Assembly (NCBI RefSeq): GCF_009914755.1
Contig: NC_060935.1
Strand: one strand, 5' to 3'
DNA from: the human T2T-CHM13v2.0 reference genome, Homo sapiens
DNA: 64,000 nucleotides
Shown: piece after piece, positions 48,829-54,378 of the stretch
Layout of the letters: each line of letters starts with the position of its first letter
How positions within the stretch are numbered: position 1 is the first letter of the stretch
The notes under the pieces: generated by a model
The model's input: the letters and a program-made list of their open reading frames with translations, nothing else
Told to the model about the DNA's origin: nothing
Databases searched by the model: none
Program-made: the position numbers and the translations under genes

Positions 48829-48932
48829 GTGTTTTTTTTTTTTTTTTTAACAGAATAAGATCATACTGTAAGTTTTTGTTGCCTAACACTGAATCTTAAG
48901 TACTTTCCTATATTCTTAAGAACGGCTTTATA

Positions 48933-50167
48933 GAGCCATTGCAGTACATTGAGCTCCATAGAGACAGCACCGGGGAAAGTGAGAGTTTCAGTCAACTTCT
49001 CAGAGTTTTCTAAGAAGTGCTCAGAGAGGTGGAAGAACATGTCTGCTAAAGAGAAAGGAAAATTTGGCCGGGCGCGGTGGCTCACACCTGTAATCCCAGC
49101 ACTTTGGGAGGCTGAGGCGGGTGGATCACGGTCAGGAGATCAAGACCATCCTGGCTAACACGGTGAAACCCCGTCTCTACTAAAAAAAACCCAAAAAATT
49201 AGCCGGTCATGGTGGCGGGCTCCTGTAGGCCCAGCTACTCAGGAGGCTGAGACAGGAGAATGGCGTAAACCTGGGAGGTGGAGCTTGCAGTGAGCGGAGA
49301 TCGCACCACTGCACTCCAGCCTGGGCAACAGAGCCAGACTCTGTCCCCCCACCCCCCACCCCCCAAAAAGAGAGGAAAATTTGAAGATATGGCAAAGGCG
49401 GACAAGGCCCATTATAAGAGAGAAATGAAAACCTATATCCCTCCCAAAGGGGAGACAAAAAAGAAGTTCAAGGATCCCAATGCGCCCAAGAGGCCTCCTT
49501 CAGCCTTCTTCCTGTACTTCTCTGAGTATGGCCCAAAAATCAAAGGAGAACGTCCTGGCCTGTCCTTTGGTGATGTTGCAAAGAAGCTGGGAGAGATGTG
49601 GAATAACACTGCTGCAGATGACAAGCAGCCTTATGAAAAGAGGTCGGCGAAGCTGAAAGAAAAATACGAAAAGGATATTGCTGCATATCGAGCTAAAGGA
49701 AAGCATGATGCTGCAAACAATGGAGTTGTCAAGGCTGCAAAAAGCAAGAAAAAGAAGGAAGAGGAGGAAAATGAGGAAGATGAAGAGGATGAGGAGGAGG
49801 AGAAAGATGAAGAAGATGAAGATGAAGAAGATGATGAAGATGAAGAAGAAGATGGTGATGATGAACAAGTTGGTTCTAGTGCAGTTTTTCTTTTGTCTAT
49901 AAAGCATTTAATCCCCCTGTACACAACTCACTCCTTTTAAAGACAAAAACTGAAATGTAAGGGTGTGTAAGATTTGTTTTTAAACTGTACAGTGTCTTTT
50001 TTTGTATAGTTAACACACTACCGAATGTGTCTTTAGATAGCCCTGTCCTGGTGGTATTTTCAATAACAACTAACCTTGCCTGTTATAGTATGCGGGTTGC
50101 AAATTGGCATGGAAATTTAAAGCAGGTTCTTGTTGGTGCACAGCATAAATTAGTTATATATGGGGAT
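48933..50167 (+). pseudogene. HMGB1: HMGB1 processed pseudogene: 5'UTR start, start codon deleted, Alu in box A, intact box B and acidic tail, partial 3'UTR, no poly(A)
   Basis: gccattgcagtacattgagctccatagagacagc 5'[46 protein letters not shown] and D/E tail; intronless. Confidence 0.95.
49066..49369 (+). mobile_element. AluY-like insertion in HMGB1 box A, with C-rich tail
   Basis: gaccatcctggctaacacggtg and gagcttgcag diagnostics; TSD ending aggaaaattt. Confidence 0.9.
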
Positions 50168-53100
50168 ATCAATGAGACAGAAAGTTAAAAAGGATATCCA
50201 GGAATTGAACTCAGCTCTGCACCAAGTGGACCTAATAGACATCTACAGAACTCTCCACCCCAAATCAACAGAATATACCTTCTTCTCAGAACCACATTGT
50301 ACTTATTCCAAAATTCACCACATAGTTGGAAGTAAAGCACTCCTCAGCAAATGTAAAAGAACAGAAATTATAACACACTGTCTCTCAGACCACAGTGCAA
50401 TCAAACTAGAACTCAGGATTAAGAAACTCACTCAAAACCGCTCAACTACATGGGAACTGAACAACCTGTTCCTGAATGACTACTGGGTACCTAACGAAAT
50501 GAGGACAGAAATAAAGATGTTCTTTGAAACCAATGAGAACAAAGACACAACATATCAGAATCTCTGGGACACATTTAAAGCAGCGTGTTGAGGGAAATTT
50601 ATAGCACTAAATGCCTACAAGAGAAAGCAGGAAAGATCTAAAGTTGACACCCTAAAATCACAATTAAAAGAACTAAAGAAGCAAGAGCAAACACATTTAA
50701 AAGCCAGCAGAAGGCAAGAAATAACTAAGACCAGAGCAAAACTGAAGGAGATAGAGACATAAAAAACCCTTCAAAAAATCCAGGAGCTGGTTTTTTTAAA
50801 AGATCAACAAAATTGATAGACCGCTAGCAAGACTAATAAAGAAGAAAAGAGAGAAGAATCAAATAGATGCAATAAAAAATGATAAAGGGGATATCACCAC
50901 TGATCCCACAGAAATACAAACTACCATAAGAGAATACTACAAACACCTCTATGCAAATAAACTAGAAAATCCAGAAGAAATGGATAAATTCCTCGACACA
51001 TACACCATCCCAAGACTAAACCAGGAAGAAGTTGAATCCCTGAATAGACCAATAACAGGCTCTGAAATTGAGGCAATAATTAATAGCCTACCAACCAAAA
51101 AAAGTCCAGGACTGGATGGATTCACAGCCAAATTCTACTAGACGTACAAGGAGGAGCTGGTACCATTCCTTCTGAAACTATTCCAATCAGTAGAAAAAGA
51201 CGGAATCCTCCCTAACTCATTTTATGGGGCTAGCATCATCCTGATACCAAAGCCTGGCAGAGACACAAAAAAAGAGAATTTTAGACAAATATCCTTGATG
51301 AACATCGATGCAAAAATCCTCAATAAAATACTGGCAAACCGAATCCAGCAGCACATCAAAAAGCTTATCCACCATGATCAAGTGGGCTTCATCCCTGGGA
51401 TGCAAGGCTGGTTCAACATACGCAAATCAATAAACATAATCCAGCATATAAACAGATCCAAAGACAAAAACCACATGATTATCTCAATAGATGCAGAAAA
51501 GGCCTGTGACAAAATTCAACAGCCCTTCGTGCTAAAAACTCTCAATAAATTAGGTATTGATGGGACGTATCTCAAAATAATAACAGCTATTTATGACAAA
51601 CCCAAAACCAGTATCATACTGAATGGGCAAAAACTGGAAGCATTCCCTTTGAAAAGTGGCACAAGACAGGGATGCCCTCTCTCACCACTCCTATTCAACA
51701 CAGTGTTGGAAGTTCTGGCCAGGGCAATCAGGCAGGAGAAAGAAATAAAGGGTATTCAATTAGGAAAAGAGGAAGTCAAATTTTCCCTGTTTGCAGATGA
51801 CATGATTATATATTTAGAAAACCCCATCGTCTCAGCCCAAAATCTCCTTAAGCTGATAAGCAACGTCAGCAAAGTCTCAGGATACAAAATCAATGTGCAA
51901 AAATCACAAGCATTCTTATACACCAATAACAGACAAACAGAGAGCCAAATCATGAGTGAACTCCCATTCACAATTGCTTCAAAGAGAATAAAATACCTAG
52001 GAATCCAGCTTACAAGGGATGTGAAAGACCTCTTCAAGGAGAACTACAAACCACTGCTCAATGAAATAAAAGAGGATACAAACAAATGGAAGAACATTCC
52101 ATGCTCATGGATAGAAAGAATCAATATCATGAAAATGACCAACTGCCCAAGGTAATTTATAGATTTAATGCCATCCCCATCAAGCTACCAATGACTTTCT
52201 TCACAGAATTGGAAAAAGCTACTTTCAAGTTCATATGGAACCAAAAAAGAGCCCTCATTGCCAAGTCAACCCTAAGCCAAGAGAACAAAGCTGGAGACAT
52301 CACGCTACCTGACTTCAAACTATACTACAAGGCTACAGTAACCAAAACAGCATGGTACTGTTACCAAAACAGAGATATAGACCAATGGAACAGAACAGAG
52401 CCCTCAGAAATAATACCACACATCTACAACCATCTGATCTTTGACAAACCTGACAAAAACAAGCAATGGGGAAAGGATTCCCTATTTAATAAATGGTGCT
52501 GGGAAAACTGGCTAGCCATATGTAGAAAGCTGAAACTGGATCCCTTCCTTACACCTTATACAAAAATTAACTCAAGATGGATTAAAGACTTACATGTTAG
52601 ACCTAAAAACATAAAAACCCTAGAAGAAAACCTAGGCAATACCATTCAGGACATAGGCATGGGCAAGGACTTCACGTCTAAAACACCAAAAGCAATGGTA
52701 ACAAAAGCCAAAATTGACAAATGGGATCTAATTAAACTAAAGAGCTTCTGCACAGCAAAAGAAACTACCATCAGAGTGAACAGGCAACCTACAGAATGGG
52801 AGAAAATTGTTGCAATCTACTCATCTGACAAAGGGCTAATATCCAGAATCTACAAAGAACTCAAACAAATTTACAAGAAAAAATCAAACAACCCCATCAA
52901 TAAGTGGGCAAAGGATATGAACAGACACTTCTCAAAAGAAGACATTTATGCAGCCAACAGACACATGAAAAAATGTTTATCATGACTGGCCATCAGAGAA
53001 ATGCAAATCAAAACCACAATGAGATACCATCTCACACCAGTTAGAATGGCAATCAAAAAGTCAGGAAACAACAGGTGCTGGAGAGGATGTGGAGAAATAG

Positions 53101-53726
53101 GAACACTTTTACACTGTTGGTGGGACTGTAAACTAGTCCAACCATTGTGGAAGTCAGATTCCTCAGGGATCTAGAACTAGAAATACCATTTGACCCAGCC
53201 ATCCCATTACTGGGTATATACCCAAAGGATTATAAATCATGCTGCTATAAAGACACATGCACATGTACGTTTATTGCAGCACTATTCACAATAGCAAAGA
53301 CTTGGAACCAACCCAAATGTCCATCAATGAAGACTGGATTAAGAAAATGTGGCACATATACACCATGGAATACTATGCAGCCATAAAAAATGATGAGTTC
53401 ATGTCCTTTGTAGGGACATGGATGAAGCTGGAAACCATCGTCAGCAAACTATCGCAGGGACAAAAAAACCAAACACCGCATGTTCTCACTCATAGGTGGG
53501 AATTGAACAATGAGACCACTTGGACACAGGAAGGGGAACATCACACACCGGGGCCAGTTGTGAGGTAGGGGGAGGGGGGAGGGGTTAGAGATAGGTTTAG
53601 GAGATATACCTAATGTAAATCATGAGTTAATGGGTGCAGCACACCAACATGGCACATGTATACCTATGTAACAAACCTGCACGTTGTGCACATGTACCCT
53701 AGAACTTAAAGTATAATTAAAAAAAA
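50168..53726 (+). mobile_element. 5'-truncated L1PA (about L1PA5 age): disrupted ORF2 plus 3'UTR
   Basis: EN C-terminal part, RT FADD motif (ORF 51295-52155), C-terminal ORF 52086-52985, stops and frameshifts, short A tail. Confidence 0.95.
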
Positions 53727-54378
53727 ATGAATGGCTTTATAATACTTTATTCTAGGGCTCTACACCTTAAATTATTTGATTCCCCTAGTTTAGTCTACAT
53801 TTTGTTATTATAGATGGTGTATCCTTGTGCATAAAATTGTGTTCAGATTTTAGAGTATCCTATTTGTTTGAAGAGACACCTGGAAGTTTAACTTCATTTT
53901 TCGGAGGAAAATTCAGTAGTCAAGAAAGAATGTTGCTGAAATATAATACTCGTGATCAAAAGGTGGACTATTACCAAAAGAGAATTGGAAAGAAACTACT
54001 ACAGAATTTAAATATGCCAGCCTTCTACCACTCTTTGCCTGAGCTTTGCAAGGCAGGGTAACACCAATACCAGCCATCGATACGAATGTTTCCCTTCATT
54101 CCTAACCTTTTATGATAATTGAGTTCTAAAGTTTTTATTAAACAAATATGCCCTCAGGTCCTAGAGTTAATTGTAATTCCTAGTAACTGATAATATAGGA
54201 TGGAAAAGACTGAAGAATATCTGGTGGTTTGGTGCCAGACCAAACTGTATGGACTTTGGTTTCACTGTGTGGAGTGTGGGGAAACAAAATCTAGATCTAA
54301 ATAAATTTTAAGTTTTGCCCGAGGCATCAAGGTCTTAGCTTATTTGGAACATTAAGGACAAGATAAAACCTCTCAAGA

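What the first reader, a model, noticed from the sequence alone, without database searches (positions are those of the whole stretch)
48918..53741. HMGB1 mRNA-L1 chimeric retrocopy inside one target-site duplication
Seen: the HMGB1 retrocopy starts in the 5'UTR at 48933 and stops mid-3'UTR (...ttatatatggggat, 50167) with no poly(A). It is joined in the same sense to L1 ORF2 (atcaatgagacag, 50168), which runs to its own A tail. The 4.8-kb unit is flanked by gaacggctttata (48920-48932) and gaatggctttata (53729-53741), differing by one CpG transition, at a tt|aaga L1-endonuclease-type site. Established: L1 ORF2p can switch templates during target-primed reverse transcription, well known for U6-L1 chimeras and less common for protein-coding mRNAs. 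Inference: RT copied ~3.5 kb of L1 RNA, then jumped to HMGB1 mRNA and copied to near its 5' end.
Basis: partly seen in the sequence, partly recalled or inferred. Interest (0 to 1): 0.8.

Follow-up and report, generated by a model that had tools for sequence, protein, structure and literature searches.

The report
HMGB1 retrocopy joined to truncated L1
A dead copy of the HMGB1 messenger RNA lies head-to-tail against the back half of an L1 jumping gene inside one pair of insertion scars; this is an ordinary kind of human genome fossil, and the human sequence alone cannot settle whether it arose in one step or two.

Summary
The anatomy is real. An intron-less HMGB1 copy (48933-50167) runs from the mRNA 5' end, with one untemplated G, to mid-3'UTR and has no tail. 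It is joined bluntly and in sense to 3.56 kb of L1 (50168-53718, from about ORF2 codon 158), followed by nine A. A 13-bp repeat (12/13) flanks the whole at a TTCTT/AAGAA site. The junction is unique in the genome.

One-step origin is not established. The HMGB1 part has more private non-CpG changes than the L1 part: 37/809 (4.6%) against 86/3328 (2.6%), p=0.005. The joint age ratio is 1.5-1.65 (CI 1.04-2.3). HMGB1 also stops 159 nt before the poly(A) site that most sister retrocopies use.

Both points fit an older HMGB1 pseudogene whose 3' end was replaced when a later L1 inserted into its poly(A) tail and deleted target DNA. Against this, CpG decay is equal in both parts, substitution density falls as a gradient rather than a step, and verified single-event mRNA/L1 chimeras exist.

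My odds: two-step 0.52, single-event chimera about 0.4. Either way it is a known kind. Primate orthologues would decide.

The parts
48913..48919 (+). Bases just 5' of the flanking repeat (ttcttaa). With the first bases of the repeat they give an L1-endonuclease-type site, TTCTT/AAGAA.
   Evidence: Read.
48920..48932 (+). 5' copy of the target-site duplication, gaacggctttata.
   Evidence: Chance control: 0 of 7,975.
48933..48985 (+). HMGB1 retrocopy, 5'UTR from exon 1: one untemplated G followed by 52 nt of exon 1.
   Evidence: Blast to the parent gene gave 2 mismatches in 52. The extra G was seen.
48986..49066 (+). HMGB1 retrocopy, end of exon 2 and start of exon 3. It follows a roughly 152-nt internal deletion that removed the start codon.
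   Evidence: No other genomic locus spans this deletion junction: only the own locus among 63 matches from 40 scored candidates.
49067..49364 (+). Alu nested in the HMGB1 part, with a C-rich degenerate tail. It is flanked by its own 19-nt repeat (49048-49066 and 49365-49383).
   Evidence: family D17 (17 of 19 identical). It is 90-92% identical to the 40 best-scoring Alus. Compared with 20 of those relatives, 5 of 230 non-CpG sites are changed and 10 of 23 CpGs are kept.
49384..50167 (+). HMGB1 retrocopy: rest of exon 3, exons 4-5 (HMG box B, acidic tail) and the first ~300 nt of the 3'UTR. It ends 159 nt before the proximal poly(A) site and has no tail.
   Evidence: Pfam HMG_box.
50168..53718 (+). 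5'-truncated L1 of primate L1PA type: ORF2 from about codon 158 through the 3'UTR. The reading frame is broken into 7 open pieces of 60 aa or more.
   Evidence: RVT_1. Match to ORF2p residues 484-819.
53719..53728 (+). Poly(A) tail of nine A followed by one T.
   Evidence: Read. The 4 of 5 relatives whose tails could be located have 25-40 nt A-rich tails.
53729..53741 (+). 3' copy of the target-site duplication, gaatggctttata.

Best explanation
Two successive L1-driven events, not one.

Step 1 (structure shown, timing inferred). A spliced HMGB1 mRNA was reverse-transcribed by L1 proteins at a TTCTT/AAGAA nick, from its poly(A) tail up to the cap; the extra 5' G marks the cap. This gave an ordinary processed pseudogene with a tail and the 13-15 bp target-site duplication.

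Step 2 (inferred). Some million years later an L1 RNA was primed on the T-run opposite that pseudogene's poly(A) tail. About 3.56 kb of L1 cDNA was made. Its 5' end was joined upstream, inside the HMGB1 3'UTR, instead of at a staggered cut downstream. The last 159 nt or more of the UTR and most of the old tail were therefore deleted (an L1 insertion-mediated deletion). The L1 tail came to abut the old 3' duplication.

The result looks like a chimera inside one duplication. An Alu also landed in the HMGB1 part. Nothing here is functional: the ATG is deleted, the stop codon is mutated and ORF2 is broken.
For: 1. Private substitutions. The HMGB1 part has 39 in 819 sites (non-CpG 37/809 = 4.6%), measured against the parent gene and 28 other retrocopies. 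The L1 part has 87 in 3,334 (non-CpG 86/3,328 = 2.6%), measured against 5 relatives. Fisher p = 0.002 for all sites and 0.005 for non-CpG. With clustered changes collapsed the counts are 31 against 75, p = 0.018. Triplet distances give 2.5% for L1, or 3.3% over the first 1.6 kb with 7 relatives chosen independently of that stretch. With 16 relatives the first 1.2 kb gives 39/1,179 = 3.3%.

2. Joint likelihood of non-CpG changes plus CpG retention. The age ratio HMGB1/L1 is 1.5-1.65, 95% CI 1.04-2.3, p = 0.01-0.04 against equal ages. At 0.17% per Myr (the rate quoted in the methods of PMC13174262) this is about 27 Myr against 15-19 Myr.

3. The excess is not inherited from a diverged source copy. 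No retrocopy shares more than 5 of 37 derived bases, and those that share most are the oldest copies. The internal deletion junction is unique in the genome.

4. The HMGB1 part lacks its 3' end. Of 28 other retrocopies, about 20 run to the proximal poly(A) site 159 nt further on and then show A-rich tails. Another 6 run on into the long 3'UTR (ends at positions 1246-1248 are the limit of my reference). Two end at 1207 and 1246. None stops more than about 15 nt short of the proximal site.

5. Poly(A) tails of these retrocopies are hit by later retroelements. 2 of 28 have an antisense Alu at or next to the 3' end (L031 at the proximal site; L032 at the edge of my reference).

6. [quoted passage not shown]
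Against: 1. CpG decay is the same in both parts. HMGB1 keeps 5 of 10 parental CpGs, plus 1 of 2 in exon 1 read by eye. L1 keeps 7 of 16 to 8 of 17. The Alu keeps 10 of 23. An age ratio of 1.8 would predict only about 20-25% kept in HMGB1.

2. The density of private changes does not step at the junction. In 400-site bins it reads 19, 20 | 15, 13, 11, 11, 9, 7, 6, 9. The best single change point lies about 900 nt inside L1. A step given a slope has p = 0.36; a slope given a step has p = 0.11.

3. The junction is blunt, with no microhomology. This is not the commonest form of an L1 5' join (recalled, not tested here).

4. The tail is only nine A, shorter than the 25-40 nt A-rich tails of the 4 relatives whose tails could be located. 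Two merged tails might be expected to be longer.

5. A verified single-event sense chimera of an mRNA 5' fragment that ends at a non-splice position and joins a truncated L1 exists: CDC42, 85 nt, Table S5 of PMC13174262.

6. The L1's lack of its own duplication cannot be checked once the target is deleted.
Confidence: 0.52

Rival explanations
1. Single-event chimeric retrocopy by template switching. L1 ORF2p primed on an L1 RNA at the TTCTT/AAGAA nick and copied 3.56 kb. It then moved to an internal point of the HMGB1 mRNA 3'UTR and copied it to the cap. The whole cDNA was integrated inside one target-site duplication.
For: - One 13-bp duplication, one tail and one endonuclease-type site enclose both parts.
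- The join is direct, blunt and sense-to-sense.
- The HMGB1 part reaches the mRNA 5' end with an untemplated G.
- Four of five published hallmarks of such chimeras are met (PMC2104539 passage).
- There is an alignment-verified precedent: a CDC42 5' fragment joined to a truncated L1 (Table S5 of PMC13174262).
- CpG retention is equal in the two parts.
- There is no sharp step in substitution density at the junction.
- The tail is short and single.
Against: - The HMGB1 part carries 1.5-1.8 times more private non-CpG changes than the L1 part (p = 0.005; joint p = 0.01-0.04), and no diverged source copy explains it.
- The acceptor RNA was entered 159 nt before its usual 3' end, so the 5' part is not a full-length RNA copy.
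- In the 2026 catalogue, sense mRNA/L1 chimeras mostly end at splice donors and carry near-full-length L1 (sections read). This locus has neither feature.
Confidence: 0.3
2. Single insertion of a chimeric RNA that already existed. Either an HMGB1 mRNA fragment was ligated to an L1 RNA fragment before reverse transcription (as proposed for U6/L1), or a transcript came from a since-lost allele or copy of HMGB1 that carried a sense L1 in its 3'UTR and was polyadenylated at the L1 signal.
For: The end product would be identical to what is seen. RNA ligation and fusion transcripts are accepted routes to L1 chimeras (PMC13174262, passages; PMC6789731, abstract only).
Against: - No other locus in this genome carries the junction (own locus only, 40 matches scored from 489 candidates).
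- The parent gene's 3'UTR continues without L1.
- The junction is not at a splice donor. The parent reads ggggat|ggtag, so there is no GT at the break.
- The same age excess of the HMGB1 part counts against any single event.
Confidence: 0.1
3. L1 first, HMGB1 second: a truncated L1 was already in place and an HMGB1 cDNA was later added at its 5' edge.
For: None beyond adjacency.
Against: - The HMGB1 part has no tail and no duplication of its own. The only duplication encloses both parts.
- The HMGB1 part is, if anything, the older part.
Confidence: 0.02

Closest known systems
Bipartite L1 chimeric retrogenes (Buzdin et al. 2002/2003 class: U6/L1, mRNA/L1)
   Same: A cellular RNA copy is fused directly and in sense to a 5'-truncated L1 3' part. 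There is one poly(A) tail and short flanking direct repeats at an L1 endonuclease-type site (features as listed in PMC2104539).
   Different: The 5' part is not a full-length RNA copy: it lacks the last 159 nt and its tail. The two parts do not look equally old. Buzdin 2003 itself (PMC169886) was not held, so its list of loci was not seen.
mRNA/LINE-1 chimeras of Law & Burns 2026 (PMC13174262, Table S5; 17 loci)
   Same: The orientation is sense, the mRNA part starts at the transcript 5' end with a short untemplated 5' base, and there is a duplication plus an endonuclease motif. The CDC42 entry (85 nt, non-splice end, 940-bp truncated L1) is the nearest in form.
   Different: Most of the 17 end at splice donors and carry near-full-length L1. 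Here five exons of a spliced mRNA (1.08 kb) end in mid-3'UTR and join ORF2. The locus is not in the paper's tables: HMGB1 occurs 0 times and no chr11 coordinate beginning 2055-2059 occurs. I estimated that hg38 interval from memory of neighbouring genes. The pipeline accepted only 25-1000 bp upstream segments, so this 1,235-bp segment was out of scope.
L1 insertion-mediated target deletion (Gilbert et al. 2002, cited in PMC13174262; Han et al. 2005, recalled)
   Same: An L1 primed at a T-run, with the 5' end resolved upstream. Target DNA is lost and the L1 has no duplication of its own. The expected product is exactly this structure if the target was a pseudogene's poly(A) tail.
   Different: The deletion is inferred from what sister retrocopies and the parent mRNA contain. 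It is not seen in a pre-insertion allele. These two papers were not read here.
Ordinary HMGB1 processed pseudogenes (more than 60 loci in this genome)
   Same: Intron-less, with a 5' end in the same cluster and a duplication at an AT-rich site. Divergence falls within the family's range.
   Different: It has no tail of its own and a truncated 3'UTR. 0 of 28 others examined are joined to L1.

Membership tests
Bipartite L1 chimeric retrogene (single-event) | 5' part is a full-length copy of a cellular RNA | tested here: not met
   The 5' end is complete and has an extra G. The copy stops 159 nt before the proximal poly(A) site and has no tail. It also lacks 152 nt internally; that loss may have happened after insertion.
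Bipartite L1 chimeric retrogene (single-event) | 3' part is a 5'-truncated LINE ending in poly(A) | tested here: met
   L1 runs from about ORF2 codon 158 to the 3'UTR and nine A.
Bipartite L1 chimeric retrogene (single-event) | Both parts are joined directly in the same transcriptional orientation | tested here: met
   The junction is blunt, ggggat|atcaatgag, with no filler and no microhomology.
Bipartite L1 chimeric retrogene (single-event) | The whole unit is flanked by short direct repeats at an L1 endonuclease-type site | tested here: met
   13 bp, 12 of 13 identical, at TTCTT/AAGAA. Chance control: 0 of 7,975.
Bipartite L1 chimeric retrogene (single-event) | Both parts arrived at the same time (present or absent together across species) | not testable with these tools
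   No primate genomes are on hand. The proxy, private divergence, gives an age ratio of 1.5-1.65 (p = 0.01-0.04), but CpG decay is equal and there is no sharp step. The proxy is inconclusive and leans against simultaneous arrival.
L1-mediated processed pseudogene | Intron-less copy of a spliced mRNA with exact exon joins | tested here: met
   All exon joins match the C13 gene's exon boundaries.
L1-mediated processed pseudogene | Own 3' poly(A) tail next to the 3' duplication | tested here: not met
   There is no A-run at 50167/50168. The only tail follows the L1.
L1 insertion-mediated deletion | Target sequence present before the insertion is missing at the L1 5' junction | tested here: inconclusive
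   159 nt of 3'UTR plus a tail are missing, relative to the parent mRNA end used by about 20 of 28 sister retrocopies. No pre-insertion allele was seen.
L1 insertion-mediated deletion | The L1 is younger than the sequence it interrupts | tested here: inconclusive
   Non-CpG changes are 2.6% in L1 against 4.6% in HMGB1, p = 0.005. The CpG clock is equal in both and the density follows a gradient.
Splice-mediated mRNA/L1 fusion (Law & Burns type) | The mRNA part ends at a splice donor and the L1 is near full-length | tested here: not met
   The break lies within the 3'UTR of the last exon, with no GT at the break. The L1 lacks its 5'UTR, ORF1 and about the first 158 codons of ORF2.

The most novel reading that the evidence does not exclude
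The unit is a true single-event chimera made by two template jumps in one reverse-transcription run. The first jump was from L1 ORF2 RNA to an internal point of the HMGB1 3'UTR. The second was within HMGB1, from exon 2 to exon 1, skipping the GC-rich 152 nt around the ATG. That would make it the longest and most complete spliced-mRNA part known in a sense mRNA/L1 chimera. It would also show that alignment-based catalogues capped at 1 kb miss a class of long mRNA/L1 chimeras.
Probability: 0.1. Interest if true: 0.45.

Novelty: new member of a known kind. Interest (0 to 1): 0.25.

Why it matters
If this is a single event, it adds a long, nearly whole-mRNA example to the short list of mRNA/L1 chimeras. 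It would show ORF2p, or an RNA ligase, joining an mRNA at an internal 3'UTR site.

If it is two events, it is a cautionary example. An L1 that lands in a pseudogene's poly(A) tail and deletes target DNA produces a perfect look-alike of a chimera inside one duplication. A shared duplication alone therefore cannot prove co-insertion.

Neither reading implies any function. All reading frames are broken.

Tried and rejected
1. A diverged HMGB1 source copy to explain the extra HMGB1 changes. No retrocopy among the 28 best shares more than 5 of 37 derived bases. No other locus spans the internal deletion junction or the HMGB1/L1 junction. Only 40 candidates per search were scored, so a weaker relative could have been missed.

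2. Splice-mediated fusion. There is no donor at the HMGB1 break.

3. The nested Alu as a clock to separate the readings. It has 5 of 230 non-CpG changes and keeps 10 of 23 CpGs. That fits both readings, so it has no power.

4. Private indels. There are 9 in 3.4 kb of L1 and 3 in 0.85 kb of HMGB1. No discrimination.

5. Closer L1 siblings for the junction-proximal 1.2 kb. The best are only 92-94% identical. With 16 relatives the private rate stayed at 3.3%.

6. Naming the L1 subfamily. No reference consensus is available and I built none. Only 'L1PA-type, private divergence 2.5-3.3%' is claimed.

7. Literature.
- 'HMGB1P40' occurs in 2 unrelated papers (listing only).
- 'HMGB1' plus 'retropseudogenes' gave 10 papers, none on this locus judged from the 9 listed titles and abstract starts.
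- Buzdin 2003 (PMC169886), Buzdin 2004 (PMC11138840), Khan 2006 (PMC1356131) and the HMG retrocopy paper (doi 10.1101/gr.893803) are not held. I cannot say whether Buzdin's list already contains this locus.

9. Orthologous primate loci: no tool holds them.

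
Full report
WHAT IS THERE

The window is human chr11 (T2T assembly), and the whole genome could be searched as G000.
- gaacggctttata (48920-48932) and gaatggctttata (53729-53741) flank a 4.8-kb unit. The one difference is C/T in a CpG.
- The 5' copy is preceded by ttcttaa, so the site reads TTCTT/AAGAA if the repeat is taken as 15 bp with two mismatches.
- The repeat is not chance. 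0 of 7,975 random 41-nt pieces of the window gave even a 10-nt anchored match with at most one mismatch.

The HMGB1 part, 48933-50167
- It aligns exon by exon, with exact exon joins, to the intron-containing HMGB1 gene on contig C13.
- It carries an HMG box (Pfam E = 1.2e-23).
- It begins within the cluster of 5' ends of other HMGB1 retrocopies. It has one G that the gene does not template, which I read as a cap-derived base (from recall).
- It ends at ...atggggat. Sister retrocopies and the gene show the proximal poly(A) site 159 nt further on.

- a roughly 152-nt internal deletion at 48985/48986 that removes the end of exon 1, the first 115 nt of exon 2 and the ATG;
- an Alu at 49067-49364 with its own 19-nt flanking repeat;
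- an 18-nt expansion in the acidic tail;
- a mutated stop codon.

The L1 part, from 50168
- It has an RT domain (E = 5e-44).
- It matches human ORF2p residues 484-819. That places its first base at about ORF2 codon 158, ignoring indels.
- ORF2 is broken into 7 open pieces of 60 aa or more.
- It ends in nine A and one T.

The junction is blunt. L1 relatives read ...ttagacag|atcaatgag, and the gene reads ...ggggat|ggtag.

The junction is also unique. Only the window's own locus spans it among 40 matches scored from 489 candidates. No HMGB1 hit extends into the L1 bases.

ONE EVENT OR TWO?

A structure like this can arise in two ways. It can form in one target-primed reverse transcription, by a template jump or from a pre-ligated RNA. 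Or it can form in two steps: an ordinary HMGB1 pseudogene first, then an L1 primed on the T-run opposite its poly(A) tail, with the L1 5' end resolved upstream so that target DNA is deleted. Both leave one duplication, one tail and a direct sense join. Only ages could be tried here.

DATING

For HMGB1 I counted changes private to this copy, against the parent gene and 28 other retrocopies.
- There are 42 mismatches to the parent in 846 sites. Two of these are changes on the parent's own lineage (27 of 28 and 22 of 25 retrocopies carry this copy's base).
- By the majority method there are 39 private changes in 819 sites; non-CpG 37 in 809 = 4.6%.

For L1 I used no consensus. I used only distances and counts of private differences against genomic relatives.
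- The triplet private branch is 2.5% over 3.5 kb with 5 relatives.
- It is 3.3% over the first 1.6 kb with 7 relatives chosen on an independent 100 nt.
- Private changes number 87 in 3,334; non-CpG 86 in 3,328 = 2.6%.
- With 16 relatives, the first 1.2 kb gives 39 in 1,179 = 3.3%.

Fisher tests of HMGB1 against L1 give p = 0.002 (all sites), 0.005 (non-CpG) and 0.018 (changes within 5 nt collapsed to one event).

The excess is not inherited. No retrocopy shares more than 5 of 37 derived bases, and the internal deletion junction occurs nowhere else.

At 0.17% per Myr (the rate quoted in the methods of PMC13174262), the two parts would be about 27 Myr and 15-19 Myr old.

WHAT WEAKENS THE DATING

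- CpG decay does not differ. HMGB1 keeps 5 of 10 parental CpGs, plus 1 of 2 in exon 1 by eye. L1 keeps 7 of 16 or 8 of 17 inferred ancestral CpGs, and the figure depends strongly on how sites are ascertained (8 of 39 with the loosest rule). The Alu keeps 10 of 23.
- Joint likelihood still gives an age ratio of 1.5-1.65 (CI 1.04-2.3, p = 0.01-0.04).
- The private-change density falls smoothly along the unit. In 400-site bins it is 19, 20 | 15, 13, 11, 11, 9, 7, 6, 9. The best single change point is about 900 nt inside L1, not at the junction. A step adds nothing once a slope is fitted (p = 0.36), and a slope adds little once a step is fitted (p = 0.11). The slope within L1 alone has p = 0.098, and the relatives do not show it.
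- The Alu (5 of 230 non-CpG changes) and private indels (9 in L1; 3 in HMGB1) do not discriminate.

STRUCTURAL CLUES

For two steps:
- The HMGB1 part lacks its 3' end. About 20 of 28 sister copies run to the proximal poly(A) site and show A-rich tails. Another 6 run on into the long 3'UTR (ends at positions 1246-1248 are the limit of my reference). Two end at 1207 and 1246. None stops more than about 15 nt short of the proximal site.
- 2 of 28 carry an antisense Alu at or next to the 3' end (L031 at the proximal site; L032 at the edge of my reference), so later retroelements do land there.
- The published hallmarks of this chimera class include a full-length 5' RNA copy (PMC2104539, Background passage), and that one is not met.

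For one step:
- The junction is blunt.
- The tail is short: nine A against 25-40 nt in the 4 relatives whose tails could be located.
- A verified chimera of an 85-nt CDC42 5' fragment, ending at a non-splice site, joined to a 940-bp truncated L1 is listed in Table S5 of Law & Burns 2026.

The same paper reports that most of its 17 sense mRNA/L1 chimeras end at splice donors and carry near-full-length L1 (sections read). This locus has neither feature.

The locus is absent from that paper's four tables. However, the pipeline accepted only 25-1000 bp upstream segments, and this one is 1,235 bp, so its absence says nothing.

VERDICT

The one-event template-switch reading is possible but not established.

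I put two successive events (a pseudogene, then an L1 in its tail with a deletion of 159 nt or more) at about 0.52. I put a single-event chimera at about 0.4: template switch 0.3, pre-formed chimeric RNA 0.1. The rest is open.

Either way this is a known kind of L1-made structure with no coding potential left. I found no printed description of this locus as a chimera: 'HMGB1P40' appears only in two unrelated papers. Buzdin 2003 and several older papers could not be read, so the locus may already be listed there.

Orthologous primate loci would settle the question at once.

Noticed in passing
window 49345-49369: The A-tail of the Alu nested in the HMGB1 part now reads ccccccaccccccaccccccaaaaa. 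A C-rich repeat is an unusual fate for an Alu poly(A) tail.
   Followed up: no
window 48985/48986: The HMGB1 copy has a roughly 152-nt internal gap, running from the GC-rich end of exon 1 to 115 nt into exon 2. It removes the ATG and is unique in the genome. It could be a later deletion or a skip by the reverse transcriptase.
   Followed up: partly
window 48986-53718 (aligned sites): The density of changes private to this copy falls steadily 5' to 3' across both parts. Counts per 400 sites are 19, 20, 15, 13, 11, 11, 9, 7, 6, 9. Five L1 relatives do not show this slope. The cause is unknown; candidates are a local mutation-rate slope, gene conversion of the L1 3' half, or chance.
   Followed up: partly
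L027+L039 (G000:C13:29681975-29690457), HMGB1 exons 3 and 4: The parent HMGB1 gene differs from 27 of 28 and from 22 of 25 retrocopies at two synonymous sites (Lys AAA against AAG, Leu CTC against CTG). These are therefore changes on the parent lineage made after most retrocopies were formed.
   Followed up: partly
L031 and L032 (other HMGB1 retrocopies): Two of 28 other HMGB1 retrocopies have an antisense Alu directly at or next to the 3' end (L031 at the proximal poly(A) site; L032 at the edge of my reference, in the long 3'UTR).
   Followed up: no
window 48700-48850: An antisense Alu with an 18-nt T-run (48832-48849) lies 70 nt upstream of the 5' flanking repeat. It is a separate insertion.
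   Followed up: no
window 50168-50267: The first 100 nt of the L1 part are 97-100% identical to most of the genomic L1 copies scored. The next 1.5 kb is only 91-94% identical to the same copies. This is a locally very conserved or lucky stretch, and it first made the L1 look much younger than it is.
   Followed up: yes
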